Source of the DNA: Escherichia coli
GTDB lineage: Bacteria; Pseudomonadota; Gammaproteobacteria; Enterobacterales; Enterobacteriaceae
DNA length: 64,000 nt
Strand: one strand, 5' to 3'
NCBI RefSeq assembly: GCF_044324785.1
Contig: NZ_CP172127.1
Position numbers and translations under genes: made by a program
Shown here: positions 4,837 to 62,882 of the stretch, piece after piece
Layout of the letters: each line of letters opens with the position of its first letter
Numbering within the stretch: the first letter of the stretch is position 1
Notes under the pieces: model-generated
What the model was told of the DNA's origin: nothing
Database searches by the model: none
What the model saw: the letters and a program-made list of their open reading frames with translations, nothing else

Positions 4837-6138
<1,302 letters not shown>

Positions 6139-33393: not shown

Positions 33394-33419
33394 ATCAGGC
33401 TCCGGAGAATTGGGGCCGT

Positions 33420-33468
33420 CCCCGGTGAAAAGACGCGTTTGCAGGTCGTCCTGCAAAGCTGATGGTTG
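33420..33468 (-). ncRNA. Guanidine-II (mini-ykkC) riboswitch in the gdx leader
   Basis: Two hairpins with ACGR loops on the minus strand (gcaggACGAcctgc and ggggACGGcccc) just upstream of the gdx RBS and start. Confidence 0.6.
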
Positions 33469-47327: not shown

Positions 47328-47403
47328 GCCCGGATAGCTCAGTCGGTAGAGCAGGGGATTGAAAATCCCCGTGTCCTTGGTTCGATTCCGAGTCCGGGCA
47401 CCA
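47328..47403 (+). tRNA. pheU: tRNA-Phe (GAA)
   Basis: gcccggatagctcagtcggtagagcaggggattgaaaatccccgtgtccttggttcgattccgagtccgggcacca, 76 nt with GAA anticodon; promoter-like ttgacg/tttaat upstream. Confidence 0.92.
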
Positions 47404-47579
47404 CTTTCACTTCCAGATTCATCTCCCGAACTCCACGAAACTCAAGTATAATCACATCGTTACAAGCAATCTGAACATCCTGAACTCCACCGAACTCTAC
47501 TGAACTCTCTCTCAATCAAGCGTTCATTGGGGGCACCGGTGGGGGCTCATTGTGTTCAGTCAGTTTCAGGAGCCCCCAT

Positions 47580-48764
47580 ATGGCACTTACAGCCAGACAG
47601 GTCGAAACAGCCAGACCTAAAGAAAAAGACTATAAACTCTCTGACGAACGTGGTTTATATCTGCTGGTAAAAACCACGGGTGCCCGCTACTGGCGGCTTA
47701 AATACCGGATAGCAGGAAAAGAGAAAAAACTGGCCCTCGGCGTCTATCCCGACGTCTCCCTTGCTGAAGCCAGAATCAAACGCGACGATGCCCGAAAAAT
47801 TATCTCCGAAGGTGGCGACCCGGGCGAAAAGAAGCGAAAGGAAAAACTCACTCAGAAAATCTCTGCCACCAATACGTTCCATGCCCTTGCTACGGAATGG
47901 CATCAGCATAAATCTTTGTCATGGTCTGAAAGTTACGCCAGAAGCGTACTGGAGGCTCTGGATAAAGATATTTTCCCGTATCTGGGCAAACGAAGCGTTA
48001 CTGATATCCTCCCGCTGGAAATGCTGGAAATTCTGCGCCGCATAGAAAAACGTGGCTCGCTGGAAAAACTTCGTAAGGTGCGTCAATACTGTAATCAGAT
48101 TTTTCGTTATGCCATCGCCACCGGACGAGCCACTGTCAATCCGGCATCTGAACTGACCAGTACGCTGGCGGCGCCAAAAGCTGCACATTTCCCCCACCTG
48201 AGAGCAGATGAGCTCCCTGTTTTTCTCCGGAAGCTCGCTGAATATCATGGCAGTCCTGTTACCCGCATGGCGACAAATCTGCTGCTTCTGACAGGCCTCA
48301 GAACGATTGAACTACGGTCCGCTGAATGGTCAGAAATTGATTTTGATAATGCCCTGTGGACAATCCCTGAAAGCCGCATGAAAATGCGACGTAAACATGT
48401 CGTACCACTGTCACGACAGGCCACTGACATTCTGCTGCAGCTCAAAACTTTCTCCGGACAATACCGGCTGGTTTTCCCGGGACGTTGTGATATCAACAAG
48501 CCAATGAGCGAAGCCAGCATCAATATGGTGCTCAAACGTATCGGTTACGATGGCAGGGCAACCGGTCATGGTTTTCGTCACACCATGAGTACCATTCTGC
48601 ACGAACAGGGCTTTAATTCTGCCTGGATTGAAATGCAGTTAGCTCATGTGGATAAAAATTCCATCAGGGGTACCTATAATCATGCCCTGTATCTCGATGG
48701 TCGCCGTGAAATGATGCAATGGTACGCTGACTACATTGATTCACTTTCCATCCAGGAGAGTTAA
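47580..48764 (+). CDS. P4-type tyrosine integrase adjacent to tRNA-Phe
   Basis: Start MALTARQVETARPKEKDYKLSDERGLYLLV with SD caggag upstream; catalytic R...HxxR...Y residues (HGFRHT, RGTYNHALY); N-terminal arm-binding-type domain. Confidence 0.88.
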   Translation: MALTARQVETARPKEKDYKLSDERGLYLLVKTTGARYWRLKYRIAGKEKKLALGVYPDVSLAEARIKRDDARKIISEGGDPGEKKRKEKLTQKISATNTFHALATEWHQHKSLSWSESYARSVLEALDKDIFPYLGKRSVTDILPLEMLEILRRIEKRGSLEKLRKVRQYCNQIFRYAIATGRATVNPASELTSTLAAPKAAHFPHLRADELPVFLRKLAEYHGSPVTRMATNLLLLTGLRTIELRSAEWSEIDFDNALWTIPESRMKMRRKHVVPLSRQATDILLQLKTFSGQYRLVFPGRCDINKPMSEASINMVLKRIGYDGRATGHGFRHTMSTILHEQGFNSAWIEMQLAHVDKNSIRGTYNHALYLDGRREMMQWYADYIDSLSIQES

Positions 48765-48849
48765 TTACACTTTGTCCTGAAATTATTCTCACAATCAATA
48801 ACCTTTCCCTCTGATCTTACAGATCAGAGGGATTCCGTTAACTTACAAT

Positions 48850-48889
48850 AAGTGATATTGGTTGTCTGGAGATTTAGGGGGACGGTCTA
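48850..48889. repeat. Solo IS2 left-end-like terminal repeat upstream of rafR
   Basis: aagtgatattggttgtctggagatttagggggacggtcta is near-identical to the terminal repeat of the complete IS2 at 58363-58402, in the same orientation. Confidence 0.5.
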
Positions 48890-48913
48890 CTATAATAATT
48901 AGCAGGAGATAAT

Positions 48914-49924
48914 ATGTCACTTAAGGCGATTGCCACTGCACTCGGAGTTTCTGTCACCACTGTCAGTCGGGCTCTTGGAGGCTATGCAGATGTGTCAGCT
49001 TCCACCCGTGCACGGGTGGAAGCTGAAGCTCGTCGACGCGGTTACCGTCCTAATACTCAGGCAAGAAGACTCAAAACCGGTAAAACCGATGCTGTCGGTC
49101 TGGTTTATCCTGGACGTGATGTGCCATTTAACAGTGGTGTTTTTATGGATATGGTCAGTTGCATCAGCCGGGAACTTGCTCACCATGATATTGACTTACT
49201 ACTGATAGCTGATGATGAGCATGCCGATTGCCACAGCTATATGCGGCTTGTTGAAAGTCGCAGGGTTGATGCTCTCATCATTGCACACACTCTGGATGAC
49301 GATCCCCGTATCACACACCTTCATAAAGCAGGTATTCCATTTCTGGCTCTTGGTCGGGTACCATCTGGTCTGCCCTGTGCGTGGTTTGACTTTGATAATC
49401 ATGCCGGGACTGGACAGGCAACCCAGAAACTGATTGCTTTGGGACATAAACGTATTGCATTGTTGAGTGAAGACACTTCACATAGCTATGTTGTTGCAAG
49501 ACGTCAGGGATGGCTTGATGCACTGAATGAGCATGAACTGGAAGATACATGGCTGCGGCTGGTTTCTCCCACACGGCGAGCAGGATATCAGGCCGTGATG
49601 GAGTTAATGTCACTACCGATACCACCAACAGCTATTATTACTGACAATGACCTGAGTGGAGATGGTGCTGCCATGGCACTGCAGTTGAGCGGTCGTCTTT
49701 CAGGAAAAGATGCGGTATCTCTGGTTGTATATGATGGTTTGCCACAGGACAGTATTATTGAGCTGGATGTGGCTGCAGTTATTCAGTCAACACGAAGCCT
49801 CGTTGGTCGCCAGATTTCCGAGATGATATATCAGATAATTACTGATTCATCATCAAAACCACTACAGGTTGTCTGGAACCCGGTATTTTATCCGGGAAAG
49901 ACGATTCATCCTCCTTGCTCCTGA
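48914..49924 (+). CDS. rafR: LacI-family raffinose operon repressor RafR
   Basis: N-terminal HTH (MSLKAIATALGVSVTTVSRALGG) plus periplasmic-binding-protein-like sugar domain; 336 aa; precedes rafA. Confidence 0.8.
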   Translation: MSLKAIATALGVSVTTVSRALGGYADVSASTRARVEAEARRRGYRPNTQARRLKTGKTDAVGLVYPGRDVPFNSGVFMDMVSCISRELAHHDIDLLLIADDEHADCHSYMRLVESRRVDALIIAHTLDDDPRITHLHKAGIPFLALGRVPSGLPCAWFDFDNHAGTGQATQKLIALGHKRIALLSEDTSHSYVVARRQGWLDALNEHELEDTWLRLVSPTRRAGYQAVMELMSLPIPPTAIITDNDLSGDGAAMALQLSGRLSGKDAVSLVVYDGLPQDSIIELDVAAVIQSTRSLVGRQISEMIYQIITDSSSKPLQVVWNPVFYPGKTIHPPCS

Positions 49925-49945
49925 TTTTTTTATCCAGCTCACATA

Positions 49946-49981
49946 TCCGAAACGTTTTGGTTGATACCCGAAACGTTTCGG
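49946..49981 (+). promoter_or_regulatory. Putative RafR operator pair flanking the rafA -35 box
   Basis: Near-palindrome tccgaaacgttttgg, then ttgata (-35-like), then the perfect palindrome ccgaaacgtttcgg, all in the rafR-rafA intergenic region. Confidence 0.55.
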
Positions 49982-50019
49982 ATCAACAGTAAGGCATCCC
50001 TGAGAAAGGAGAATGTCTT

Positions 50020-52146
50020 ATGGTTTCAAAGTACTGCAGACTGAGCAGTCCTCGCTCTGATTTAATTATTAAAACCCGTCCACATGCAGAAATTATCTGG
50101 TGGGGCTCTGCACTGAAACATTTCTCACCGGATGACTGTGCCAGCCTGGAAAGACCGGTTGCGAATGGTCGTCTGGATATTGATACGCCACTAACACTGA
50201 TGGCTGAAAATGCCCTGGGACTTTTTAGCTCTCCGGGACTGGAAGGACACAGGAATGGGCTGGATGCATCTCCTGTTTTTTATACAGTTGACGTGGAACA
50301 TACCGAAAACACTCTGAGACTTACCAGTGAAGATTCGGTAGCCGGCCTGCGTCTGGTCAGCGAGCTGGTGATGACGCCATCAGGAATTCTGAAAGTTCGT
50401 CATGCACTGACCAACCTCAGAGAGGGGGACTGGCAGATAAATCGTTTCGCCATCACTTTACCTTTAGCGGAACGTGCGGAAGAAGTCATGGCTTTTCACG
50501 GACGCTGGACTCGTGAATTTCAGCCGCACAGGGTACGTCTCACTCATGATGCTTTTGTTCTGGAAAATCGCAGAGGGCGGACATCTCATGAGCATTTTCC
50601 GGCGCTGATTGTCGGCACGCCAGGCTTCTCGGAACAACAGGGAGAGGTGTGGGCTGTGCATCTGGGGTGGAGTGGAAATCACCGCATGAGATGTGAGGCA
50701 AAAACTGACGGCAGGCGTTACGTTCAGGCTGAGGCTCTGTGGATGCCGGGTGAGAAGGCTCTCAGGAAGAATGAAACCCTGTACACCCCGTGGCTATATG
50801 CCTGCCACTCTGCGGATGGCCTGAATGGAATGAGTCAGCAATACCATCGTTTTTTGCGTGATGAAATTATCCGTTTCCCTGAGCAAAAACCCCGCCCTGT
50901 ACATCTCAATACCTGGGAAGGTATTTATTTCAATCACAATCCTGATTACATCATGCAGATGGCTGAGCGTGCAGCAGCACTGGGCGTTGAACGTTTCATT
51001 ATTGATGATGGCTGGTTTAAAGGACGTAACGATGACCGCGCGGCTCTGGGCGACTGGTATACCGATGAACAGAAATACCCGAACGGGCTGATGCCGGTTA
51101 TTAAACATGTGAAATCTCTCGGTATGGAATTTGGCATATGGGTTGAGCCGGAAATGATTAACCCGGATTCTGACCTGTTTCGTCTTCATCCTGACTGGGT
51201 ATTGTCAATGCCTGGATATTCCCAGCCAACCGGAAGATATCAGTATGTTCTTAACCTGAATATTCCAGAGGCCTTTGCTTACATTTATGAACGTTTCTTA
51301 TGGTTACTGGGAGAACATCCGGTTGATTATGTGAAATGGGACATGAATCGTGAGCTTGTACAGGCAGGGCATGAAGGCCGTGCGGCAGCAGATGCACAGA
51401 CCCGTCAGTTCTATCGATTGCTTGATCTCCTCCGTGAACGTTTTCCACATGTTGAGTTTGAGTCCTGTGCTTCCGGTGGGGGGCGTATTGACTTCGAAGT
51501 CCTGAAACGCACACACCGGTTCTGGGCATCTGACAATAATGATGCCCTGGAGCGCTGCACCATACAACGTGGCATGAGTTACTTTTTCCCTCCTGAGGTG
51601 ATGGGGGCGCATATTGGCCATCGCCGCTGCCATGCAACTTTCCGGCAGCACAGCATCGCTTTTCGTGGGCTGACGGCATTGTTCGGCCATATGGGGCTGG
51701 AGCTGGATCCGGTGGCCGCAGATGCGAAGGAATCTGACGGTTATCGCCGGTATGCCTTGCTCTATAAAGAATGGCGACAACTGATTCATACAGGAGTTCT
51801 CTGGCGTGTGGATATGCCAGATCCTTCGATACAGGTTCAGGGAGTCGTCAGCCCTGATCAGTCTCAGGCACTTTTTATGATCAGCCAGCTTGCAATGCCG
51901 GATTACACCTTACCAGGCATACTTCGTTTTCCCGGTCTGGCGGCGGAAGTGCGTTACCGGCTTCGGGTTATTGATCACCCGGACCTCCAGGTGGTTGGTG
52001 AAGGCGGTCATACCATGCGCAAATTACCTGTCTGGATGAATCAGAGCCTTGAGGCCAGTGGTGAATGGCTGGCACAGGGAGGGATTCAGCTCCCCGTACT
52101 GGATCCGGAGAGTGCGATTTTGATAGCACTTGAAAGAGCTGTGTGA
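50020..52146 (+). CDS. rafA: Alpha-galactosidase (GH36) RafA
   Basis: 708-aa ORF with GH36 architecture; SD aaaggag upstream; first gene of the rafABD cluster. Confidence 0.85.
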   Translation: MVSKYCRLSSPRSDLIIKTRPHAEIIWWGSALKHFSPDDCASLERPVANGRLDIDTPLTLMAENALGLFSSPGLEGHRNGLDASPVFYTVDVEHTENTLRLTSEDSVAGLRLVSELVMTPSGILKVRHALTNLREGDWQINRFAITLPLAERAEEVMAFHGRWTREFQPHRVRLTHDAFVLENRRGRTSHEHFPALIVGTPGFSEQQGEVWAVHLGWSGNHRMRCEAKTDGRRYVQAEALWMPGEKALRKNETLYTPWLYACHSADGLNGMSQQYHRFLRDEIIRFPEQKPRPVHLNTWEGIYFNHNPDYIMQMAERAAALGVERFIIDDGWFKGRNDDRAALGDWYTDEQKYPNGLMPVIKHVKSLGMEFGIWVEPEMINPDSDLFRLHPDWVLSMPGYSQPTGRYQYVLNLNIPEAFAYIYERFLWLLGEHPVDYVKWDMNRELVQAGHEGRAAADAQTRQFYRLLDLLRERFPHVEFESCASGGGRIDFEVLKRTHRFWASDNNDALERCTIQRGMSYFFPPEVMGAHIGHRRCHATFRQHSIAFRGLTALFGHMGLELDPVAADAKESDGYRRYALLYKEWRQLIHTGVLWRVDMPDPSIQVQGVVSPDQSQALFMISQLAMPDYTLPGILRFPGLAAEVRYRLRVIDHPDLQVVGEGGHTMRKLPVWMNQSLEASGEWLAQGGIQLPVLDPESAILIALERAV

Positions 52147-52208
52147 AGAGAGGTACGGAGCCTCAGCTCCGTCCTGTTTCTCAATATTATCCCGTGAGGG
52201 TAAGAATA

Positions 52209-53486
52209 ATGAATTCTGCAAGTACGCATAAAAATCCCGATTTCTGGATTTTCGGTCTGTTCTTCTTTCTCTACTTTTTCATCATGGCAACCTGTTTTCC
52301 GTTTTTGCCTGTATGGCTGTCCGATGTGGTCGGACTGAGTAAAACGGATACAGGTATAGTCTTTTCATGTCTTTCTCTGTTTGCCATCAGTTTCCAGCCA
52401 TTGCTTGGGGTCATATCAGATCGCCTGGGACTGAAAAAAAACCTGATCTGGAGTATCAGCCTGTTACTTGTATTTTTCGCCCCCTTTTTTTTATATGTAT
52501 TTGCGCCCCTGCTGCGCTTCAATATCTGGGCAGGCGCACTGACTGGCGGTGTCTTTATTGGTTTTGTGTTTTCTGCAGGTGCCGGAGCTATTGAAGCTTA
52601 TATAGAGCGGGTCAGTCGCAGTCGTGGATTTGAATACGGTAAAGCGAGGATGTTCGGGTGTCTGGGCTGGGCGTTATGTGCGGCTATGGCTGGAATGCTT
52701 TTTAATGTCGATCCTTCTCTGGTTTTCTGGATGGGGTCAGTAAGCGCATTATTGTTGCTTCTTCTGTTGTTTCTGGCGCGCCCCAGTACCAGCCAGACGG
52801 CAATGGTTATGAATACACTGGGTGCCAATTCTTCCCTGATTTCGACCAGAATGGTCTTCAGCCTGTTTCGCATGCGTCAGATGTGGATGTTTGTTCTCTA
52901 CACGATTGGTGTGGCCTGTGTCTATGATGTATTTGATCAGCAGTTTGCCACATTTTTTCGTTCATTCTTTGACACTCCTCAGGCAGGAATAAAAGCATTC
53001 GGATTTGCTACCACTGCGGGGGAGATTTGTAATGCCATTATCATGTTCTGTACACCATGGATAATTCATCGCATTGGTGCCAAAAATACCCTGCTTGTTG
53101 CGGGGGGAATTATGACCATCCGCATTACCGGTTCTGCTTTTGCCACCACCGCGACAGAAGTGGTGATTCTGAAAATGCTTCACGCTCTTGAAGTTCCATT
53201 TTTGCTGGTTGGGGCGTTCAAATATATTACGGCAGTGTTTGACACCCGACTGTCAGCGACCGTTTATTTAATAGGTTTTCAGTTTTCCAAACAACTTGCT
53301 GCAATACTTCTCTCTACCTTTGCCGGCCACCTGTATGATCGTATGGGATTCCAGAATACGTATTTTGTGCTCGGGATGATTGCTCTGACTGTTACCGTGA
53401 TATCAGTTTTCACGCTGAGTTCTTCCCGCGGGAGCGTACACCCTTCTGTAGAAAAAGCCCCTGCAGCGCATTCGGAGATTAACTGA
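52209..53486 (+). CDS. rafB: Raffinose permease RafB (LacY-like MFS symporter)
   Basis: Start inferred at MNSASTHKNPDFWIFGLFFFLYFFIMATCFPFLPVWL (LacY-like N-terminus), about 425 aa with 12 TM segments. Confidence 0.85.
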   Translation: MNSASTHKNPDFWIFGLFFFLYFFIMATCFPFLPVWLSDVVGLSKTDTGIVFSCLSLFAISFQPLLGVISDRLGLKKNLIWSISLLLVFFAPFFLYVFAPLLRFNIWAGALTGGVFIGFVFSAGAGAIEAYIERVSRSRGFEYGKARMFGCLGWALCAAMAGMLFNVDPSLVFWMGSVSALLLLLLLFLARPSTSQTAMVMNTLGANSSLISTRMVFSLFRMRQMWMFVLYTIGVACVYDVFDQQFATFFRSFFDTPQAGIKAFGFATTAGEICNAIIMFCTPWIIHRIGAKNTLLVAGGIMTIRITGSAFATTATEVVILKMLHALEVPFLLVGAFKYITAVFDTRLSATVYLIGFQFSKQLAAILLSTFAGHLYDRMGFQNTYFVLGMIALTVTVISVFTLSSSRGSVHPSVEKAPAAHSEIN

Positions 53487-54916
53487 TGAAACAGCGTCTT
53501 GCTTTGGCACAGTCTGCCCTTGAAAAACTTTGCGCACGTCGTGGTAATGCCTGGTACCCGATTTTTCATCTGGCTCCACCTGCCGGCTGGATGAATGATC
53601 CAAATGGCCTTATTTACTTCAATGGGCGTTACCATGCGTTCTTCCAGCATCATCCTGCAAGCGCATATCAGGGGCCAATGCACTGGGGGCATGCCACCAG
53701 TACCGACATGTTGCACTGGCAACACGAACCTGTCGCGCTGGCACCCGGAGATAAATATGATCGTGATGGCTGTTTTTCAGGGAGTGCCGTGGATGATGAT
53801 GGCGTGCTATCACTTATTTATACTGGTCATATTTGTCTCGATGATCGTGGTAATGACAGCATTATCCGTGAAGTACAGTGTCTGGCTACAAGTCATGATG
53901 GTATTCACTTTGAGAAGCAGGGCTGTGTGCTGACACCTCCGGAAGGTATAATGCATTTCCGTGATCCCAAAGTCTGGCACGAAGACGGCTCCTGGTGGAT
54001 GGTCATTGGTGCCCGGGACGCTTCTGACAATGGGCAAGTTCTGTTGTATCGCGGGACATCTTTGCGGGACTGGCATCTGGAGCATGTTCTTGCTCATTCC
54101 GCAGCCGGAAAAAGTTATATGTGGGAATGCCCCGATTTCTTCAGGTGTGGTAATTTTCACTGGCTGATGTTCTCACCACAGGGGATGCCCCCTTCCGGTT
54201 ATCGGTTCCGTAACCTTTTTCAGAGCGGTGTGTTGGCAGGGAGCTGGAAGCCTGGTTCTGTCTTTGCGCTGAAAGGGGGATTTGAAGAGCTGGATTATGG
54301 TCATGACTTTTATGCTCCACAGTCCATGCTGGCTGAGGACGGCAGGCGTATCATTATGGCATGGATGAATATGTGGGATTCACCCGTGCCCACCCGCAGT
54401 GAAGCCTGGGCAGGATGTCTGACGCTGCCCAGAGAGGTTTTTGAGCGCGATGGCCGGCTGTGCCAGCGACCTGTGCGTGAAGTCGAATCTCTGCGCAAAA
54501 AATGCCAGCCATTATCCCCTGTAAGGTTACAGGGTTTGCAATTACTGACCGAAAATGTACAGGCCGCAGAATTATTGGTGACGTGGCATACGGTTGACAG
54601 TCATGCGGAGCACTATGGCGTCCGCCTTGGAGACGGTCTGCGACTTTATGTGGATAATCAGGCCGGGCGACTGGTACTGTGGCGCTATTACCCTGAGGAA
54701 GGGTTGGATGGTTACCGCAGTGTTGAACTTCCTGATACAGAATATCTGACTCTTCGTATTTTCTTGGATCGTTCATCTGTTGAAGTGTTTGTTAACGATG
54801 GTGAGGCAACCTTATCAAGTCGTATTTATCCGCAAGCGGACTCGAGACAATTATCGTTATATGCCGCTCATGGCGATGCGATATTAACTGATGGCACTTT
54901 ATGGATGCTGACCTGA
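53486..54916 (+). CDS. rafD: Sucrose-6-phosphate hydrolase/invertase (GH32) RafD
   Basis: GH32 signature WMNDPNG plus the RDP and EC motifs; start overlaps the rafB stop (TGATG). Confidence 0.85.
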   Translation: MKQRLALAQSALEKLCARRGNAWYPIFHLAPPAGWMNDPNGLIYFNGRYHAFFQHHPASAYQGPMHWGHATSTDMLHWQHEPVALAPGDKYDRDGCFSGSAVDDDGVLSLIYTGHICLDDRGNDSIIREVQCLATSHDGIHFEKQGCVLTPPEGIMHFRDPKVWHEDGSWWMVIGARDASDNGQVLLYRGTSLRDWHLEHVLAHSAAGKSYMWECPDFFRCGNFHWLMFSPQGMPPSGYRFRNLFQSGVLAGSWKPGSVFALKGGFEELDYGHDFYAPQSMLAEDGRRIIMAWMNMWDSPVPTRSEAWAGCLTLPREVFERDGRLCQRPVREVESLRKKCQPLSPVRLQGLQLLTENVQAAELLVTWHTVDSHAEHYGVRLGDGLRLYVDNQAGRLVLWRYYPEEGLDGYRSVELPDTEYLTLRIFLDRSSVEVFVNDGEATLSSRIYPQADSRQLSLYAAHGDAILTDGTLWMLT

Positions 54917-55110
54917 GACATATCGATATCAGTATTTTTTCTGACATTATCTGTCATTACTTTGCCAGTACACATTAATTATCTTTGCTGTGTGCTTTTG
55001 GTAATGTGTTGCGATTATATATACCAGTCTGGTGAAGAATATGAATGGTATTTTGTGTTGATACAGAGAATATAAGAGTACCCACATTTGTTTTTATTTA
55101 AGGGGGTAAA

Positions 55111-56505
55111 ATGAATAAGTTACTTTTGGGTTTATCTCTTTTTTTATTACTGGAATACAATGCGTGTGCAGCAAAAACAGGGGGGCTAACGCTTGAACAA
55201 AGAATGGCATTGCTGGAAGAACGCCTGGAAGCTGCAGAAAAAAGGGCGGAAAAAGCAGAAAGAATGTTAAAGAGTTTTGATATAGAACAACATTCTGAAA
55301 TACGTCAAATTAGTTCAGAGCAGAATAAAAAAGATGCTAACAGCTATGCAGTAGTTGAGTCAACAAAAGAAAAAACATCTTCTCCAGGTTTTCTGCTCTC
55401 TGGTTACAATGATTTGAAGTTTTATGGTGATGTGGAGTTTAATATAGATGCTGCCAGTAAACCCGGTCAGTTAGTAATGATAAGTTCCGGGGCGAACAGT
55501 GAGTCAGTGAATGAACGGTGGGACCTTAATGGCCGTATTCTATTAGGTTTTGACGGTACCCGTAAGCTTGATAATGGTTATTTCGCTGGATTTTCAGCAC
55601 AACCACTGGCGGATATGCACGGTTCAGTGAATATTGATGATGCATTATTCTTTTTTGGAAAAGATGACGAGTGGAAAGTGAAAGTCGGTCGTTTTGAAGC
55701 TTACGATATGTTCCCTCTAAATCAGGATACTTTCATTGAGTATTCCGGTAATACAGCTAATGATATTTATGCTGATGGCCGTGGTTATATCTATATGATG
55801 AAAGAGGGACGCGGTCGTTCTGACGCTGGTGGTAATTTCCTCATCAGTAAACAACTCGATAACTGGTATTTTGAGTTAAACACGTTACTTGAAGACGGAA
55901 CATCTTTATATAATAACGGTAATTATCATGGACGATATATGGAGCAGCAGAAAAATGTCGCTTATCTGCGCCCGGTAATTGCCTGGTCGCCAACGGAAGA
56001 ATTCACAGTCTCCGCAGCGATGGAAGCGAACGTGGTAAAAAATGCTTATGGCTATACCGATAATAAGGGGAATTTTGTCGATCAGTCCAATCGTTCCGGT
56101 TATGGTATTAGCATGACATGGAACGGTCTGAAAACAGATCCGGAAAATGGCATCGTGGTTACTCTTAATACCGCCTATTTGGATGCCAGTAATGAGAAAG
56201 ATTTCACTGCCAGTATTAATGCTCTGTGGAAACGTTTCGAACTGGGTTATATCTACGCACATAATAAGATTGATGAATTTAGTGGTGTCGTGTGTAATAA
56301 TGGTTGCTGGATTGATGGTGAAGGAATATACAACATTCACACCATTCATGCATCTTATCAGTTTGCTAATGTGATGGATATGGAGAACTTTAATATTTAC
56401 CTCGGGGCTTATTACTCAATTCTGGATAGTAACTGTAGATATAGTAATTGTGACATTACCGATGATCGTTACGGTGCCCGATTACGTTTCAAATACTTTT
56501 TTTGA
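55111..56505 (+). CDS. rafY: Raffinose glycoporin RafY
   Basis: 464-aa protein with signal peptide, N-terminal coiled-coil (LEERLEAAEKRAEKAERMLK) and beta-rich body ending in an aromatic residue (RFKYFF), typical of outer-membrane porins. Confidence 0.8.
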   Translation: MNKLLLGLSLFLLLEYNACAAKTGGLTLEQRMALLEERLEAAEKRAEKAERMLKSFDIEQHSEIRQISSEQNKKDANSYAVVESTKEKTSSPGFLLSGYNDLKFYGDVEFNIDAASKPGQLVMISSGANSESVNERWDLNGRILLGFDGTRKLDNGYFAGFSAQPLADMHGSVNIDDALFFFGKDDEWKVKVGRFEAYDMFPLNQDTFIEYSGNTANDIYADGRGYIYMMKEGRGRSDAGGNFLISKQLDNWYFELNTLLEDGTSLYNNGNYHGRYMEQQKNVAYLRPVIAWSPTEEFTVSAAMEANVVKNAYGYTDNKGNFVDQSNRSGYGISMTWNGLKTDPENGIVVTLNTAYLDASNEKDFTASINALWKRFELGYIYAHNKIDEFSGVVCNNGCWIDGEGIYNIHTIHASYQFANVMDMENFNIYLGAYYSILDSNCRYSNCDITDDRYGARLRFKYFF

Positions 56506-57005
56506 TGCATAGTAACAAAGTATTGTTCCACACTTACATTAACGCGTTTTTCGGGCGCGTCATCAGCGATGCATACGAATGATCGCAGTCTGCCAATGGT
56601 CGATTTATCTTGGTTGCGCAGGGGCGAGCACCGGGCAGGTACCGGCGGCTGACTCTGAAGCTCTGAGTCGGGTAATTGCGTCAGGTCACGAAGGACTGAC
56701 ACGGGTATTGGTGGCAGGTGATGAAGTACTGAGTGTGGTAATTTCGGGGATGCAATGCAGGAGCTGAGTCAGGTTTGCACTGAGCTGAGGACCCGTAGCG
56801 AGCGGGTTCCTGCTATTTTTCGGTGTCAGGGGCGCAAGTCCCGACGTCGGGACTTGCCGGGAGATTGTCAGGTCATTGACCGGGTGTGAGCGGCTCGACG
56901 TAAGCGGTAGATATGCCCAATTCCCCCCGATAAATTCATTACCAAACACATTATTCAATTTGTTTTTATTTTTCCGCTTTCAGTCATTATCGCTATCGCT
57001 TCGTC

Positions 57006-57071
57006 GGTAATGACTCCAACTTATTGATAGTGTTTTATGTTCAGATAATGCCCGATGACTTTGTCATGCAG
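57006..57071. mobile_element. IS1 terminal fragment (66 bp), truncated by the IS2 insertion
   Basis: ggtaatgactccaacttattgatagtgttttatgttcagataatgcccgatgactttgtcatgcag is identical to the first 66 bp of the complete IS1 at 59354; it abuts the IS2 end directly. Confidence 0.8.
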
Positions 57072-57082
57072 TGGATTTGCCC

Positions 57083-57988
57083 CTATATTTCCAGACACCT
57101 GTTATCACTTAACCCATTACTGGTCCGCTGCCGCAGATATTCCCGTGGCGAGCGATAACCCAGCGCACTATGCGGATGCCATTCGTTATAATGCTCGAAC
57201 GCCTCTGCAAGGTTCTTTGCTGCCGTTAACCCGTCTGGTTTGGGCATGATACTGATGTAGTCACGCTTTATCGTTTTCACGAAGCTCTCTGCTATTCCGT
57301 TACTCTCCGGACTCCGCACCGCCGTGTTCTTCGGTTCAAGTCCCAACATCCGGGCGAACTGGCGTGTTTCATTAGCCCGGTAGCATGAACCATTATCCGT
57401 CAGCCACTCCACTGGAGACGACGGAAGATCGTTGCCGAAGCGGCGTTCCACCGCTCCTGGCATGACGTCCTGTACTGTTTCACTGTTGAAGCCGCCGGTA
57501 GTGACCGCCCAGTGCAGTGCCTCACGATCACAGCAGTCCAGCGCGAACGTGACACGCAGTCTCTCTCCGTTATCACAGCAGAACTCGAACCCGTCAGAGC
57601 ACCATCGCTGATTGCTTTCTTTCACGGCCACTCTGCCAGTATGTGCCCGTTTCGATGGCGGTACAGCGGTTTTTCGCTCAAGCAACAGCGCATTCTGGCG
57701 CATGATCCGGTAAACACGTTTGGCATTGATCGCAGGCATACCATCAAGTTCGGCCTGTCTGCGAAGCAGCGCCCATACCCGACGATAACCATACGTGGGC
57801 AGCTCTCCGATAACATGGTGTATACGGAGAAGCACATCCGTATCATCTGAGTGACGGCTGCGGCGACCATCTTTCCAGTCATCGGTTCGTCTGAGAATTA
57901 CGTGCAACTGCGCACGCGACACCCGGAGACAACGGCTGACTAAGCTTACTCCCCATCCCCGGGCAATAAGGGCGCGTGCGCTATCCAC
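57083..57988 (-). CDS. insD: IS2 transposase OrfB (InsD)
   Basis: 301-aa DDE transposase [30 protein letters not shown]. Confidence 0.92.
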
Positions 57989-58311
57989 TTTTTTGCACGC
58001 CCGTATTCAACGGCTTCTTTAAGGAGTTCATTTTCCATCGTTTTTTTGCCGAGCAGGCGCTGGAGTTCTTTAATCTGCTTCATGGCAGCAGCAAGTTCAG
58101 AGGCAGGAACGACCTGCTCTCCTGCGGCCACAGCAGTAAGACTTCCCTCCTGGTATTGCTTGCGCCAGAGAAATAACTGGCTGGCTGCCACACCGTGTTG
58201 CCGGGCAACAAGGGAGACCGTCATTCCCGGTTCAAAACTCTGCTGAACAATAGCGATCTTTTCCTGTGTAGTACGCCGTCTGCGTTTCTCCGGTCCTAAG
58301 ACATCAATCAT
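57946..58311 (-). CDS. insC: IS2 OrfA (InsC)
   Basis: Start [43 protein letters not shown] protein; 3' end overlaps insD in the programmed frameshift arrangement. Confidence 0.9.
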
Positions 58312-58562
58312 CTGCTCTCCAATGACTAGTCTAAAAACTAGTATTAAGACTATCACTTATTTAAGTGATATTGGTTGTCTGGAGATTCATGGGGCCAGTC
58401 TAGCAGATTATGGTGCGCAGTTATACAACAGCAGTAATGAGGAGTCTACTATTTCTCTTGTTATGCCAGATGCAATTGAATGGAACGGAAAGAATACGCC
58501 AAGACGGCAATACATGATAAAATATATTGCCGTATTTAAATATTAAAATTTATTTTTGTAGA

Positions 58563-58952
58563 TCATCTGAATTTTCGGTGACCTTCAAGTTTTATATCGT
58601 TCATTTTATCCAGAGACTCACGTAATGATTCTATATTCCCGTCCTCAACTTTCTTTTTTGCAATATTGATTTCATGTTGTAGTTTTTTTAACTCTTCCTT
58701 ATAACTATCTACAGAAACTTTATCATTAACATCTATCTTTTCAGGAATAATATTCATAGAAGAATCTACAGATTTATCCATCATTTCAAGAGCATTTAAT
58801 AGTGATGATTTATCATTGGAAGATTGTAGAATACTCATACTTTTGGCAAGAGACTGCATGTTTTTATCCAGGCCGGAAGCCAAAGATACGTTGCTGAGAG
58901 ATAAAAAAATAGCTAGTACAGCACCTGAGAAAAATACCTTTTGTTTTTTCAT
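58563..58952 (-). CDS. Secreted cytochrome b562-like four-helix-bundle protein (divergent CybC homolog)
   Basis: Start MKKQKVFFSGAVLAIFLSLSNVSLA (signal peptide); mature region aligns with cytochrome b562 including the Met heme ligand (SGLDKNM vs ADLEDNM) and C-terminal His (LEGHRKFR vs NAYHQKYR). Confidence 0.6.
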   Translation of the reverse strand: MKKQKVFFSGAVLAIFLSLSNVSLASGLDKNMQSLAKSMSILQSSNDKSSLLNALEMMDKSVDSSMNIIPEKIDVNDKVSVDSYKEELKKLQHEINIAKKKVEDGNIESLRESLDKMNDIKLEGHRKFR

Positions 58953-59368
58953 TAATATATTCCTGTTCAAAGTTGATTATAGTTATGTCAATTTAAGTTT
59001 ATTATTATGATTTTTTATTTTTGTACTATGAATCTCCTGTATGCTTATATGTGCAGAAAATCTCATTTTATCAAGAAGAATATCAAATTTTCTCCGATAC
59101 TTCTACATACTCCATCATTCATGCTCCTTTTATCCGTGCACCGTAAAACCCCGTCCTTCAGCGGGGGATATAAGGCGCTGTTTTCCACCTAACCAGGTGT
59201 CTGCTGCTATTCAATGTATTGGCGGATGACGGATGCCGCCCGTTGAAGCAGGACCCCTCGTCCTTAGGGCGTGGAGGATGTCAAAATGAAAACTTGTGGT
59301 ATGAATCAATCCATTCATCATCCTTTCGGATCATTGCATTCAGTATAACGCTGGGTAATGACTCCAAC

Positions 59369-59872
59369 TTATTGATAGTGTTTTATGTTCAGATAATGCC
59401 CGATGACTTTGTCATGCAGCTCCACCGATTTTGAGAACGACAGCGACTTCCGTCCCAGCCGTGCCAGGTGCTGCCTCAGATTCAGGTTATGCCGCTCAAT
59501 TCGCTGCGTATATCGCTTGCTGATTACGTGCAGCTTTCCCTTCAGGCGGGATTCATACAGCGGCCAGCCATCCGTCATCCATATCACCACGTCAAAGGGT
59601 GACAGCAGGCTCATAAGACGCCCCAGCGTCGCCATAGTGCGTTCACCGAATACGTGCGCAACAACCGTCTTCCGGAGACTGTCATACGCGTAAAACAGCC
59701 AGCGCTGGCGCGATTTAGCCCCGACATAGCCCCACTGTTCGTCCATTTCCGCGCAGACGATGACGTCACTGCCCGGCTGTATGCGCGAGGTTACCGACTG
59801 CGGCCTGAGTTTTTTAAGTGACGTAAAATCGTGTTGAGGCCAACGCCCATAATGCGTGCACTGGCACGACAT
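59369..59872 (-). CDS. insB: IS1 InsB
   Basis: 167 aa, [37 protein letters not shown]. Confidence 0.92.
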
Positions 59873-60066
59873 CCGACGCCATTCATGGCCATATCAATGA
59901 TTTTCTGGTGCGTACCGGGTTGAGAGGCGGTGTAAGTGAACTGTAGTTGCCATGTTTTACGGCAATGAGAGCAGAGATAGCGCTGATGTCCGGCAGTGCT
60001 TTTGCCGTTACGCACCACGCCTTCAGGAGCGGAGCAGGAAGGACATCTGATGGAAATGGAAGCCAC
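59791..60066 (-). CDS. insA: IS1 InsA
   Basis: 91 aa, [40 protein letters not shown]. Confidence 0.92.
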
Positions 60067-60329
60067 GCAAGCACCTTAAAATCACCATCATACACTAAAT
60101 CAGTAAGTTGGCACCATTACCTGACCAAGCTTCCTCTATTGCGGCACCTGATTGCATCAATATCGAAAGTGATAAGATCCTCTCACTAGCAGGGCATGAC
60201 AAGTGTAACTGCTGATTTGTTAGCCTGTTTTAAGTTTTTTAAGATCAATTATTTCTCATTTTTTGACTTTATTGCTAGCCGTGAAAATGCAAAGCCTATA
60301 GGATACAAAAATTACAATTTGTAGGTTTT

Positions 60330-60836
60330 GTGAGTCATATGAAGGCAACCAATATAGACCCTCAACTGCTTGAAAAAGCCACGAGTATCTTTGCTGAGTT
60401 GGGCTTACCTATTGAGCAGGCTATTAACGTCTTTTTAGCTAAATCCGTTCAAGCCAAAGGTTTTCCGTTTTCTGTTGCTCTTGAAAATGAAGTAGAGACA
60501 CGGGAAGTTGCACAAACGCAACACAATATCAGCAATGCAGAGATAACCGAAGCTATCCAAGACTTGGTTGAACATGCTCTACCACTGAGTGAAATAGAAA
60601 ACCTCACGCAGCTAACCTATTGTCGCAACATTTTTGGGTTGTCATTCCCCGTGCTCAAACTGGCTAAATCATCACGGCCAGAAGACATTCGCAGTGCAGC
60701 CAAAGATGCCAAAGAGCGAAACCGCTACTCCACCACTAAAGTGGCCCAGCGAGATGAAAAAACCTATGTTATTTGCACCCAATGGACCGACAGACATCGT
60801 TCTGCATTTTGCCGTTGGCAAGCCATCTTTAGCTAG
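60330..60836 (+). CDS. RelB/DinJ-like ribbon-helix-helix protein with an uncharacterised C-terminal extension
   Basis: N-terminal 50 aa (KATNIDPQLLEKATSIFAELGLPIEQAINVFLAKSVQAKGFPFSV) follow the DinJ pattern; the remaining 110 aa or so are unassigned; alternative ATG start at 60339; AT-rich; no toxin gene adjacent. Confidence 0.5.
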   Translation: MSHMKATNIDPQLLEKATSIFAELGLPIEQAINVFLAKSVQAKGFPFSVALENEVETREVAQTQHNISNAEITEAIQDLVEHALPLSEIENLTQLTYCRNIFGLSFPVLKLAKSSRPEDIRSAAKDAKERNRYSTTKVAQRDEKTYVICTQWTDRHRSAFCRWQAIFS

Positions 60837-60902
60837 AACGCAAAATAATAACCAAACAATACACTGATTTTTTAACGATTTAACTTCATTTAGGTAGTAT
60901 CA

Positions 60903-62882
60903 ATGAACTTACAAGACAAAGAACAAAGCGCCAAACTCTCCAGTGCTATTTGGCGTATGGCAGATGATTTATGGGGTGATTTCAAACACACCGATTTTGC
61001 GCGGATTATCCTGCCATTTTTGCTACTGCGTCGTATTGAATGCGTGTTAGAACCCACCCGTGAGGAAGTTCGTAAGTTCTATCTGGCCGAAAAACAATCC
61101 GGCATAGACCTTGGTTTAGTGTTGCCAGAAATTGCGGGATTCGCCTTTTACAACACCAGTGAATATAGCCTAGAAACCTTAGGCGCGTCAGACACCGGCG
61201 ACAACCTAGAACACTACATCAGCCAGTTCAGCAAAAACGTTCGTACCATCTTTGATGAGTTTAAATTTGGTCAAACCATAGAAGATCTGGAAAAAGCCAA
61301 GTTGCTGTATCGCATGGTAAACCATTTTGCCAACCTCGACTTGCATCCTGATGTAGTGTCTGACCGCGTATTATCAGATGCTTATGAAGAGCTGATTCTA
61401 AAGTTCGCCAGTTCGGTTAATGAAAAGGCCGGGGAATTTATGACCCCGCGTGATGCCGTGCGTCTTGCCACCAAACTGGTGCTGGCGGCGGATGAAGATA
61501 TCTTTAGTGAAAAGGGTGTGATCCGCACCATCTATGACCCAACCTGTGGCACGGGCGGTTTCCTTTCCGATGCCATTAGCCAAATTGAAGAAATGGGCAG
61601 CAGCGCTAAAGTCGTGCCTTTTGGTCAAGAGCTCGACCCCGCGACCCATGCCATGGCGCTGACCAATATGATGATCCGCGGTTTTGATGCCAATAACATC
61701 AAGCAAGGCAACACCTTATCAGACGATCAGTTACGTGCCGACAAGTTTCACTACGGCCTTGCCAACCCGCCATTTGGCATTAAGTGGGAAAAAGCCAAGA
61801 AAGAAGTAGAACGTGAGCACAAACAGCTCAAATACGCCGGACGCTTTGGGCCAGGCCTGCCGAGTATTTCTGATGGTTCAATGCTGTTTTTACTGCACTT
61901 GGTATCAAAAATGGAAACGCCGGAAAATGGTGGTGGCCGAGTGGGTATAGTCCTTTCTGGCTCGCCACTGTTTAATGGCGATGCAGGCTCAGGCCCATCA
62001 GAAATCCGCCGTTGGCTGCTAGAACAAGACTTAGTCGAAGCGATTGTTGCCCTGCCAACCGATATGTTCTTCAACACCGGCATTGGCACCTACATCTGGA
62101 TTTTGACTAACCATAAAGAGCCAAGACGCAAGAATCAGGTGCAACTGATTAACTTGGCAGATATTTGGACTCCCATGCGTAAATCGCAAGGCGATAAGCG
62201 CAAGTACCTGAGTGATGAACAGATTGACGATATTGTCCGTGCGTACGATGGCTTTGAAGCCAGTGACAACTGTAAGATCTTCCAGACTACTGATTTTGCC
62301 TACCGTAAAGTCACCATTCAGCGTCCACTGCGTGCCAAACTAGATATTACCGCTGCGGGCATTGCTGCATTTGTGCAGCAAGATACGTTTAAAAAACTCA
62401 AACCAGAGCAACAAGCGGCATGGGTACAATACCTCACCGATAACCTTGGCCTTCAGCCTTATGAATGGGCACGTTTGGCGGTTAAGAAGAATAACAATAA
62501 GGGTGACTTTGGTAAGTGCTCAAAAGCACTGGCTACGGCCTTAACTGCGCACTTTGTAAAAATTGATCCGCAATTTGAGCCTGCACTGGATGAAAAAGGC
62601 CAAGTGATCGCCGACCCTAAACTCAAAGACACCGAAAGCATTCCTTTTGACCGCGACGTTGAAGATTACTTCGCACAAGAGGTGCTGCCACATGTACCGG
62701 ATGCCTTTATTGATCACTCAGTGCGTGATGAAAAAGACGGCGAAGTGGGCATTGTCGGTTATGAAATTAACTTTAACCGCTATTTCTACCAATACGTGCC
62801 ACCACGCGAGTTGAGTGTGATTGATCGTGAGCTAAAAGCATGTGAAGCGCGCATTCAGGCTCTGCTGAATGAGGTGGCGTAA
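60903..62882 (+). CDS. hsdM: Type I restriction-modification N6-adenine DNA methyltransferase subunit HsdM
   Basis: 659 aa with AdoMet motif YDPTCGTGGFL and catalytic NPPFG; stop overlaps the hsdS start (TAATG). Confidence 0.88.
   Translation: MNLQDKEQSAKLSSAIWRMADDLWGDFKHTDFARIILPFLLLRRIECVLEPTREEVRKFYLAEKQSGIDLGLVLPEIAGFAFYNTSEYSLETLGASDTGDNLEHYISQFSKNVRTIFDEFKFGQTIEDLEKAKLLYRMVNHFANLDLHPDVVSDRVLSDAYEELILKFASSVNEKAGEFMTPRDAVRLATKLVLAADEDIFSEKGVIRTIYDPTCGTGGFLSDAISQIEEMGSSAKVVPFGQELDPATHAMALTNMMIRGFDANNIKQGNTLSDDQLRADKFHYGLANPPFGIKWEKAKKEVEREHKQLKYAGRFGPGLPSISDGSMLFLLHLVSKMETPENGGGRVGIVLSGSPLFNGDAGSGPSEIRRWLLEQDLVEAIVALPTDMFFNTGIGTYIWILTNHKEPRRKNQVQLINLADIWTPMRKSQGDKRKYLSDEQIDDIVRAYDGFEASDNCKIFQTTDFAYRKVTIQRPLRAKLDITAAGIAAFVQQDTFKKLKPEQQAAWVQYLTDNLGLQPYEWARLAVKKNNNKGDFGKCSKALATALTAHFVKIDPQFEPALDEKGQVIADPKLKDTESIPFDRDVEDYFAQEVLPHVPDAFIDHSVRDEKDGEVGIVGYEINFNRYFYQYVPPRELSVIDRELKACEARIQALLNEVA

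What the first reader, a model, noticed from the sequence alone, without database searches (positions are those of the whole stretch)
48914..56505. Complete raffinose operon (rafR, rafA, rafB, rafD, rafY) carried on the chromosome
The raf genes (LacI-type repressor, GH36 alpha-galactosidase, LacY-like permease, GH32 invertase and glycoporin) are classically described as plasmid-borne in E. coli. Here they sit intact, with SD sequences and a coupled rafB-rafD junction, inside a tRNA-Phe island and bracketed by IS2-type ends.
Basis: partly seen in the sequence, partly recalled or inferred. Interest (0 to 1): 0.45.

Follow-up and report, generated by a model that had tools for sequence, protein, structure and literature searches.

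The report
Chromosomal raffinose operon at tRNA-Phe
This is an intact copy of the well-known E. coli raffinose-utilisation operon sitting in a genomic island next to the pheU tRNA-Phe gene; this chromosomal arrangement is found in hundreds of sequenced E. coli, so it is real but ordinary.

Summary
Five intact genes lie at the stated coordinates: rafR, rafA, rafB (true start ATG 52209), rafD and rafY. They have the gene order and protein lengths of the pRSD2 raf operon. RafA, RafB and RafD are 97.6%, 95.5% and 96.4% identical to the Swiss-Prot pRSD2 proteins. The twin operator palindromes around the rafA -35 box are conserved.

The context is chromosomal. About 47 kb of core genes (rnr to dsbD-dicD) runs into tRNA-Phe (pheU), a P4-type integrase, then raf.

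It is not unusual. rafR-rafA occurs in 470 of 5,426 complete E. coli genomes, at 314 chromosomal and 195 plasmid places. The pheU-int-raf junction is in 102 genomes and the pheV equivalent in 191, including E24377A and SMS-3-5.

The "IS2 bracket" is only partly right. Upstream there is a 41-nt solo IS2 end. Downstream, a full IS2 lies 566 bp past rafY inside an IS1 remnant, with no target duplication. It is not a composite transposon.

One by-product: IncF-plasmid copies (about 99% identical) carry the last 760 bp of the island integrase, cut by IS2. This suggests they derive from the int-raf islet.

Interest is low.

The parts
47328..47403 (+). tRNA-Phe (GAA). This is the pheU copy, judged from the flanking dsbD and dicD/yjdC genes. 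It is the attachment site of the island.
   Evidence: ARAGORN and Rfam. dsbD and dicD lie upstream. In E24377A, homology with the island starts inside the tRNA 3' half at 47355.
47580..48764 (+). Tyrosine recombinase of the P4/CP4-57-like island-integrase type (394 aa), with an arm-type DNA-binding domain.
   Evidence: NCBIfam NF007246 scores 309 bits, covering residues 12-397, which is below the curated cutoff of 434. The RefSeq start and product name are given. The exact protein is seen on about 1,000 contigs.
48849..48889 (+). Solo remnant of an IS2 left inverted repeat, with its outer end facing rafR. It carries an 8-bp deletion at the tip relative to the IncF-plasmid copy.
   Evidence: It is 37/41 identical to the IRL of the full IS2 at 58362-58402, in direct orientation. 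Homology with the pRSD2-type operon begins only at 48901.
48914..49924 (+). rafR, a LacI-family repressor (336 aa).
   Evidence: NCBIfam LacI-family hits cover residues 2-315. It is 98.8% identical to the pIP1206 RafR that one search's authors use as RafR, and 87.5% identical to the RafR of the pRSD2-type operon.
49947..49981 (+). rafA control region. Two operator-like palindromes, CCGAAACGTTTTGG (49947-49960) and CCGAAACGTTTCGG (49968-49981), flank the -35-like hexamer TTGATA (49961-49966).
   Evidence: Repeats D6 and I13. The cores are invariant in the window, pIP1206 and the pRSD2-type operon while the flanks vary. Published twin raf operators are cited (refs 45-47). Binding was not tested here.
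50020..52146 (+). rafA, a GH36 alpha-galactosidase (708 aa).
   Evidence: Pfam Melibiase at 6e-113 plus the GH36 N- and C-terminal domains. It is 97.6% identical to the exact Swiss-Prot RAFA_ECOLX sequence. DDGW and KWD motifs are present.
52155..52172 (+). Stable hairpin in the rafA-rafB intercistronic region, followed by a U-rich stretch.
   Evidence: The terminator-like scan finds it. The fold of 52145-52210 gives -23.4 kcal/mol, z = -4.08, with 0 of 200 shuffles as stable. Its role (attenuation or mRNA stability) is inferred.
52209..53486 (+). rafB, a LacY-like raffinose:H+ symporter (425 aa). It carries a private G178V substitution (G>T at 52741).
   Evidence: TIGR00882 at 676 bits against a cutoff of 220. 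It is 95.5% identical to Swiss-Prot P16552. G178V is absent from the other copies examined. The exact protein is seen on one contig only. Position 178 varies in homologues, and Val occurs in 6 of 101.
53486..54916 (+). rafD, a GH32 invertase/sucrose hydrolase (476 aa). Its ATG overlaps the rafB stop codon (TGATG).
   Evidence: TIGR01322 at 460.6 bits against a cutoff of 356.4. WMNDPNG at residue 35, RDP at 159 and ECP at 214. It is 96.4% identical to the exact Swiss-Prot RAFD_ECOLX sequence.
55111..56505 (+). rafY, an outer-membrane glycoporin (464 aa), with a signal peptide, an N-terminal coiled extension and a C-terminal Phe.
   Evidence: Pfam PF16966 'Porin-like glycoporin RafY', model positions 1-372 of 372, E = 4e-148. 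N- and C-termini are shown. It is 86.9% identical to the RafY of the pRSD2-type operon and 99.1% to that of pIP1206.
57006..57071 (+). 66-bp IS1 end fragment, cut off by the adjacent IS2.
   Evidence: It is 100% identical to the first 66 nt of the full IS1 at 59354-60121 (family D1).
57072..58402 (-). Complete IS2 (1,331 bp, with insC/insD-type genes). It has no clean 5-bp target duplication: the flanks read TGCAG and GCAGA.
   Evidence: NCBIfam IS2 TnpB at 712 bits and IS2 TnpA at 276 bits. Terminal inverted repeat I1. It is 98.5% identical over 1,331 bp to the IS2 of pIP1206. Flanks are shown.

Best explanation
The region is a functional-looking, horizontally acquired raffinose catabolic operon. 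It is carried as the first cargo module of a mosaic genomic island integrated at the chromosomal pheU tRNA-Phe gene.

How it works is inferred from the characterised pRSD2 system:
1. RafY lets raffinose and related oligosaccharides cross the outer membrane.
2. RafB imports raffinose by proton symport.
3. RafA splits off galactose, leaving sucrose.
4. RafD hydrolyses sucrose to glucose and fructose.
5. RafR represses rafABD by binding two palindromic operators that straddle the -35 box of the rafA promoter, and is released by an alpha-galactoside inducer such as melibiose.

The int-raf unit (about 9.2 kb) came in with the tRNA-Phe-specific tyrosine integrase, not by IS2 transposition. The IS2 and IS1 pieces around it are later insertion and deletion scars.

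Shown here: gene content, intactness, sequence identity to the pRSD2 proteins, conservation of the operators, chromosomal context, and population frequency. Inferred: enzyme activities, regulation, and the route of integration.
For: Genes and families are established.

The comparison with the pRSD2-type operon is direct. Locus L005 encodes the exact Swiss-Prot RafA, RafB and RafD. The window matches it at 95.1% nt over 48901-54970 and 89.6% over 54973-56511, with identical gene lengths. The operator cores and the TTGATA hexamer are invariant across three diverged lineages.

The chromosomal context is solid. The window from 1 to about 47400 is collinear with the rlmB-rnr-purA-hfq-mutL-glyVXY-frd-ampC-groESL-aspA-dcuA-dsbD-dicD-pheU region.

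The same dsbD-dicD-pheU-int-raf junction is found in 102 complete genomes, and the yqgA-pheV-int-raf junction in 191.

Horizontal origin is supported. The island differs by 2 SNPs in 13.2 kb (positions 47328-60500, from the tRNA gene onward) from strain 23CRST007, while the adjacent core is only 98-99% identical. G+C is 44-51% across the island against 50-57% in most of the core.

In E24377A the shared unit runs from inside a partial tRNA-Phe copy (47355) to 39 bp past rafY (56544). This shows int-raf behaving as a discrete, tRNA-bounded unit.
Against: No experiment was done here. Growth on raffinose, RafR binding and integrase activity are all untested.

The native rafR upstream region has been replaced by the IS2 remnant, starting 13 nt before the ATG, so the rafR promoter is uncertain. 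The only candidate is a consensus match, TGGAGA-18-TATAAT, at 48867-48896, and promoter-like hits in this region are no more frequent than in shuffled sequence.

RafB carries a private G178V change.

RafR and RafY are only about 87% identical to the pRSD2-type proteins.

The second att repeat of the island is not in the window, so integrase-mediated insertion is inferred from context only.
Confidence: 0.9

Rival explanations
1. The raf segment is really plasmid DNA, either a misassembled contig or an integrated plasmid, and not a chromosomal island.
For: Raf is classically plasmid-borne, and a 2025 paper still calls it so. About 190 plasmids carry a 99%-identical module. IS1 and IS2 copies nearby could cause assembly joins.
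Against: The junction tRNA-Phe/int/raf is continuous and identical in 102 independent complete genomes at pheU and 191 at pheV. No plasmid backbone genes lie in the window or in the next 30 kb of the matching genome. The chromosomal allele is distinguishable from the plasmid allele: 100% against about 99% identity, a full integrase against a truncated one, and an 8-bp difference at the solo IS2 end.
Confidence: 0.02
2. Raf reached this site as an IS2-flanked composite transposon, so the IS2 ends are the functional boundaries of the mobile unit.
For: A solo IS2 IRL lies 25 nt upstream of rafR, close to the point where homology with the pRSD2-type operon begins. A full IS2 lies downstream. IncF plasmids have a full IS2 upstream of the module.
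Against: The left element is only 41 nt, and the two IRLs are in direct orientation. The right IS2 is 566 bp from rafY, sits inside an IS1 remnant and lacks a 5-bp target duplication. E24377A has the same int-raf unit with no IS2 downstream and an IS66 at 56545 instead. The conserved unit includes the integrase and starts in the tRNA, which points to site-specific integration. An old IS2-mediated event probably did join raf to the island backbone, but that predates this locus.
Confidence: 0.08
3. The operon is present but silent or defective in this strain, because of RafB G178V or because rafR or rafA expression was altered by the IS2 scar.
For: G178V is private to this sequence; the exact RafB is seen on one contig only. 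The rafR upstream region is replaced.
Against: All five reading frames are full length. Position 178 is naturally variable (G/A/V/C/S), and Val occurs in 6 of 101 homologues. The IS2 scar is shared by all 293 chromosomal and about 190 plasmid copies, which would not persist if it destroyed function. The rafA promoter/operator region is 100% identical to that of pIP1206.
Confidence: 0.08

Closest known systems
raf operon of plasmid pRSD2 (rafR-rafA-rafB-rafD plus rafY; Aslanidis, Schmid & Schmitt 1989; Aslanidis & Schmitt 1990; Ulmke et al. 1997, as cited)
   Same: The gene order and orientation are the same, and the protein lengths are identical (336, 708, 425, 476 and 464 aa). The rafB/rafD TGATG overlap is present. 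The twin operator palindromes around the -35 box are invariant. RafA, RafB and RafD are 97.6%, 95.5% and 96.4% identical to the Swiss-Prot proteins.
   Different: It is a distinct allele: 95% nt identity over rafR-rafD and 90% over rafY, with RafR 87.5% and RafY 86.9% identical. RafB has Arg instead of Ser at position 139. About 400 bp between rafD and rafY, a remnant of a PfkB sugar-kinase gene in the pRSD2-type operon, is absent here. The region upstream of rafR is replaced by an IS2 end. The location is chromosomal.
raf module of IncF multireplicon plasmids such as pIP1206 (NC_010558)
   Same: It is 99.1-99.5% identical across all five genes. The solo IS2 end upstream of rafR is the same, as is the last 760 bp of the integrase gene.
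   Different: In the plasmids the integrase is cut at the position equivalent to 48005 by a full IS2, and there is no tRNA. The plasmid copy keeps the intact IS2 tip (CCAGTCTA) that is deleted in the chromosomal copy. Sequence past rafY diverges from about 56506.
Chromosomal int-raf islets at pheV or pheU in other E. coli (for example E24377A, SMS-3-5, 23CRST007)
   Same: The int-raf unit is the same at 99.7-100% identity, and the tRNA-Phe attachment is the same. Two strains have the identical island for at least 16.7 kb at pheU.
   Different: The only differences are a private SNP in rafB, one in IS1, and the choice of pheU over the commoner pheV.
Chromosomal csc (sucrose) regulon and the mel and lac operons of E. 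coli
   Same: The logic is the same: a LacI-type repressor controls a LacY-family symporter plus a glycoside hydrolase. GH32 invertase and a PfkB kinase are shared themes with csc.
   Different: The substrates and genes differ. Raf combines a GH36 alpha-galactosidase, a GH32 invertase and a dedicated porin.

Membership tests
raf (raffinose) operon, pRSD2 type | Gene set and order rafR-rafA-rafB-rafD-rafY on one strand | tested here: met
   Family assignments are. The order and lengths are the same as in L005, which encodes the exact Swiss-Prot RafA, RafB and RafD.
raf (raffinose) operon, pRSD2 type | High sequence identity to the characterised proteins RafA P16551, RafB P16552 and RafD P16553 | tested here: met
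   Identities are 97.6%, 95.5% and 96.4% over the full length. RafB keeps Val-35, Ser-138, Gly-389 and Ile-391 but has Arg-139 where pRSD2 has Ser (the residue list comes from the title cited).
raf (raffinose) operon, pRSD2 type | Two RafR operators flanking the -35 box of the rafA promoter | tested here: met
   Palindromes at 49947-49960 and 49968-49981 flank TTGATA and are invariant in three lineages. That these are the published operators rests on literature recalled and cited. Binding was not tested.
raf (raffinose) operon, pRSD2 type | Confers growth on raffinose; inducible by melibiose or raffinose | not testable with these tools
   This needs a growth or enzyme assay.
raf (raffinose) operon, pRSD2 type | Plasmid location (historical description, not a functional requirement) | tested here: not met
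   The context is chromosomal. Chromosomal places outnumber plasmid places, 314 to 195.
RafY glycoporin family (Pfam PF16966) | Full-length match to the family model, with a signal peptide and a C-terminal aromatic residue | tested here: met
   PF16966 model positions 1-372 of 372, 493.7 bits. The N-terminus is MNKLLLGLSLFLLLEYNACA and the C-terminus is ...KYFF.
GH32 invertase | Catalytic motifs WMNDPNG, RDP and EC | tested here: met
   Motifs at residues 35, 159 and 214. TIGR01322 scores above its cutoff.
tRNA-associated genomic island with P4-type integrase | Tyrosine integrase gene directly downstream of the 3' end of a tRNA gene, with foreign cargo beyond it | tested here: met
   tRNA-Phe at 47328-47403 and int at 47580-48764. 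The cargo includes raf, IS elements, type I R-M and others. The island is near-identical between strains whose core differs by 1-2%.
tRNA-associated genomic island with P4-type integrase | Direct repeat of the tRNA 3' end (second att site) at the far end of the island | tested here: inconclusive
   There is no second copy of the last 16-24 nt of the tRNA within the window. The island runs beyond 64000. In E24377A a partial tRNA copy precedes int-raf.
IS2 composite transposon | Two IS2 copies bounding the cargo, with a 5-bp target duplication outside them | tested here: not met
   The left element is a 41-nt remnant. The right IS2 is 566 bp from rafY and its flanks are TGCAG and GCAGA. Other copies of int-raf lack it.

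The most novel reading that the evidence does not exclude
The raf modules on today's IncF plasmids may be derivatives of the chromosomal tRNA-Phe int-raf islet, captured through IS2, so that gene flow ran from chromosome to plasmid. Every sampled plasmid copy starts at the same breakpoint inside the island integrase gene (window position 48005) and carries the same solo IS2 end.

A related point: the raf islet is physically linked (within 4.4 kb) to a type I hsdMSR system in this island type. This could explain why rafY and hsdR emerged together as chicken-associated genes in a published GWAS.
Probability: 0.55. Interest if true: 0.3.

Novelty: already known. Interest (0 to 1): 0.12.

Why it matters
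There is little new biology here. The operon, its regulation and its porin have been characterised since 1989-1997, and chromosomal copies have been in public genomes since at least E24377A and SMS-3-5.

The practical value is as a correction. In complete E. coli genomes raf is more often chromosomal (at pheV or pheU) than plasmid-borne. Papers that treat raf as a plasmid marker, or interpret rafY/raf GWAS hits as plasmid traits, may therefore be misattributing it.

The trait is plausibly adaptive in soy-fed poultry, and many of the matching genomes are from chickens. The integrase fossil in IncF plasmids gives a simple, testable history for how a catabolic islet entered multidrug-resistance plasmids.

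Tried and rejected
- I tried to read the primary pRSD2 papers (PMC210573, PMC179467, PMC2440673). They are not held, so details of the raf promoter, CRP control and RafY function rest on memory and on secondary citations.
- Literature searches for a description of a chromosomal or tRNA-Phe raf island found nothing specific. One of them was too broad to be useful.
- pRSD2 DNA itself is not in the collections. I substituted a contig that encodes the exact Swiss-Prot RafA, RafB and RafD. Its RafR and RafY could not be tied to pRSD2 by name.
- I looked for a second att repeat in the window and found none.
- I considered a hybrid IS2/flank promoter for rafR. It is kept only as a weak lead, because promoter-like hits were not enriched over shuffles and the spacing differs by 8 bp in the plasmid copy.
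- I considered RafB G178V to be inactivating. I rejected this as unlikely because the position is variable and Val occurs naturally.
- I rejected the composite-transposon reading and the plasmid/misassembly reading (see the rival explanations).

Full report
**1. The observation**

The 336-aa product of 48914-49924 is a LacI-family regulator, matched from residue 2 and so including the helix-turn-helix.

The 708-aa product of 50020-52146 has the GH36 N-terminal, Melibiase and GH36 C-terminal domains. The next ORF is an oligosaccharide MFS/LacY-type symporter (TIGR00882, 676 bits against a cutoff of 220). Its annotated and Swiss-Prot-concordant start is ATG 52209, giving 425 aa. The in-frame GTG at 52143 listed mechanically is not the start.

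The product of 53486-54916 is a GH32 enzyme (TIGR01322, above its cutoff) with the WMNDPNG, RDP and ECP catalytic motifs. The product of 55111-56505 matches the Pfam family built on RafY (PF16966) over the whole model at E = 4e-148. It has a signal peptide and a terminal Phe.

Shine-Dalgarno motifs precede every gene. The rafB stop and rafD start overlap as TGATG. All reading frames are full length.

**2. Is it the raf operon?**

pRSD2 DNA is not in the collections, so I looked for an equivalent. A homology search with the window's RafB found a 425-aa protein that an exact look-up identifies as Swiss-Prot P16552/AAA24498, the pRSD2 raffinose permease.

Contigs encoding that exact protein (L005-L010) carry rafR-A-B-D-Y with the same five lengths. 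The RafA and RafD of L005 are the exact UniRef representatives RAFA_ECOLX and RAFD_ECOLX. L005 is therefore a faithful pRSD2-type operon.

The window aligns to L005 at 95.1% nt over 48901-54970 and at 89.6% over 54973-56511. Protein identities are RafR 87.5%, RafA 97.6%, RafB 95.5%, RafD 96.4% and RafY 86.9%.

In the rafR-rafA spacer, two palindromes (CCGAAACGTTTTGG at 49947-49960 and CCGAAACGTTTCGG at 49968-49981) flank TTGATA. Their cores are invariant across the window, pIP1206 and the pRSD2-type operon, although the surrounding bases differ. This matches the published description of two raf operators around the -35 box (papers listed, refs 45-47; details from memory).

The window therefore holds a diverged allele of the classical operon, complete with its control region.

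**3. Differences from pRSD2-type**

Homology starts only 13 nt before the rafR ATG. Upstream of that the window has 19 nt of unassigned sequence and then a 41-nt remnant of an IS2 left end (48849-48889), whose outer tip faces rafR.

Between rafD and rafY the pRSD2-type operon has about 400 extra bp. These are the two ends of a PfkB-type sugar-kinase gene that is intact in a third lineage, found on the chromosome of strain ST2747. The window lineage has lost that gene cleanly.

A strong hairpin sits between rafA and rafB (z = -4.08).

**4. Context**

Window positions 1-47400 are collinear with the core region yjfI-rlmB-rnr-purA-hflKC-hfq-mutL-glyVXY-frdABCD-ampC-efp-groESL-aspA-dcuA-cutA-dsbD-dicD. 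This region ends at tRNA-Phe (47328-47403), which by these neighbours is pheU.

A 394-aa tyrosine integrase follows, then raf. After rafY come:
- about 500 bp of spacer;
- a 66-bp IS1 end;
- a complete IS2 (57072-58402);
- a cytochrome b562 paralogue;
- a full IS1;
- an orphan RelB/DinJ antitoxin gene;
- a type I hsdM-hsdS pair that runs off the window.

In the matching genome the island continues for at least 30 kb more with hsdR, KwaA, RhuM, ICE remnants and iha.

The island differs from that genome by 2 SNPs in 13.2 kb (47328-60500, from the tRNA gene onward), whereas the adjoining core is only 98-99% identical. G+C drops to 44-51% across the island. This is what a horizontally acquired island looks like.

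**5. How common is it?**

rafR-rafA is present in 470 of 5,426 complete E. coli genomes, at 314 places on chromosomes and 195 on plasmids. A query spanning dsbD-dicD-pheU-int-rafR-rafA is covered at 80% or more in 102 genomes. The pheV equivalent (yqgA-pheV-int-raf) is covered in 191.

E24377A and SMS-3-5, both long-standing reference genomes, carry it chromosomally. Many hosts among the listed matches are chickens and other poultry. This fits two recent reports that raf or rafY is chicken-associated. One of those reports still calls the operon plasmid-borne, while the other lists rafY among chromosomal genes.

The chromosomal location is therefore real but routine. The plasmid/misassembly alternative is excluded by the many independent complete assemblies with the identical junction.

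**6. The IS2 'bracket'**

The upstream solo end is significant: 37 of 41 identical, blastn E of about 3e-9. It marks an old event that joined raf to the island backbone.

The downstream IS2, however, is not at the boundary of the raf module. Homology with pRSD2-type and ST2747-type ends at 56511, with E24377A at 56544 (where an IS66 begins), and with IncF plasmids at about 56698 with decay from 56506. This IS2 is embedded in an IS1 remnant, lacks a clean 5-bp duplication, and lies in direct rather than inverted orientation to the solo end. It is a later scar, not a transposon arm.

**7. A by-product: the plasmid copies**

IncF plasmids such as pIP1206 share window 48005-56698. That segment includes the last 760 bp of the integrase gene (97.9% identical), the solo IS2 end and all five raf genes (99.1-99.5%). 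A full IS2 abuts position 48005.

A spread sample of the roughly 200 matching plasmids shows the same breakpoint in every case that carries the segment. A truncated tRNA-island integrase on a plasmid is most simply a fossil of capture from an int-raf islet.

Conversely, the plasmid copy retains the intact IS2 tip that the chromosomal copies have lost through an 8-bp deletion. Both therefore descend from a common int-IS2 end-raf ancestor rather than one from the other as they stand today.

I rate chromosome-to-plasmid capture at about 0.55. It is not demonstrated.

**8. Mechanism**

By homology with the characterised system (literature cited; details from memory):
- RafY provides outer-membrane passage for raffinose-family sugars.
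- RafB provides proton-coupled uptake.
- RafA releases galactose.
- RafD splits the remaining sucrose.
- RafR represses from the twin operators until an alpha-galactoside inducer is present, with CRP-cAMP activation.

Sequence intactness and operator conservation are shown here. Activities and regulation are inferred.

The one private change, RafB G178V (52741 G>T), falls at a naturally variable position where Val occurs in 6 of 101 homologues. It is unlikely to matter.

**9. Verdict**

The finding is accurate in substance and slightly over-read in two respects: the rarity of chromosomal raf and the meaning of the IS2 ends. It describes an already known system in an already common location. 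Interest is low.

Noticed in passing
L003/L004 (IncF plasmids) 5206-5965, equivalent to window 48005-48764: IncF raf plasmids carry the 3' 760 bp of the tRNA-Phe island integrase gene, cut by a full IS2 at the same breakpoint in every sampled plasmid. This suggests a single capture of the raf module from an int-raf islet.
   Followed up: partly
window 52741 (rafB codon 178): A private G>T change gives RafB G178V. The exact protein is on record from one contig only. The position is variable among homologues, and Val is seen in 6 of 101.
   Followed up: yes
window 54970-54973; L011 15096-16022; L005 12763-13170: A PfkB-type sugar-kinase gene sits between rafD and rafY in a third, about 93%-identical chromosomal raf lineage (strain ST2747). 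The pRSD2-type operon keeps only its two ends, and the window lineage has lost it completely.
   Followed up: partly
window 57006-57071, 57072-58402 and 59354-60121: A 66-bp IS1 end is cut off by a complete IS2 that lacks a clean target duplication. A full IS1 with an identical first 66 nt lies 2.3 kb further on, and a cytochrome b562 paralogue (58563-58952, - strand) lies between them. These are signs of IS-mediated rearrangement.
   Followed up: partly
window 60339-64000: An orphan RelB/DinJ-type antitoxin gene (60339-60836) is followed by type I restriction-modification hsdM (60903-62882) and hsdS (from 62882, cut by the window end). In the matching genome, hsdR, a KwaA family protein gene and RhuM follow. 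rafY and hsdR were both chicken-associated in a published GWAS, and physical linkage in this island could explain that.
   Followed up: no
window 52155-52172: An unusually stable hairpin lies in the rafA-rafB intercistronic spacer (z = -4.08 against shuffles), followed by a U-rich run. It is a possible internal attenuator or mRNA-stabilising element.
   Followed up: partly
window 33411-33457 (- strand): A guanidine-II (mini-ykkC) riboswitch lies upstream of sugE. This is a known feature of the core genome.
   Followed up: no
plasmid record NZ_CP137739.1 35955-37436 (hit H71): A 187-kb record typed as a plasmid carries the tRNA-Phe flank plus the full-length island integrase (query 1-1482, 98.8% identical). 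This differs from all the other plasmids, which have only the truncated integrase gene.
   Followed up: no
L012 (E24377A) 7412-7490: In E24377A the int-raf unit follows a partial tRNA-Phe copy annotated 'tRNA-OTHER', itself preceded by SPI-7-type ICE genes. The int-raf islet therefore sits in a tandem array of tRNA-Phe islands.
   Followed up: partly
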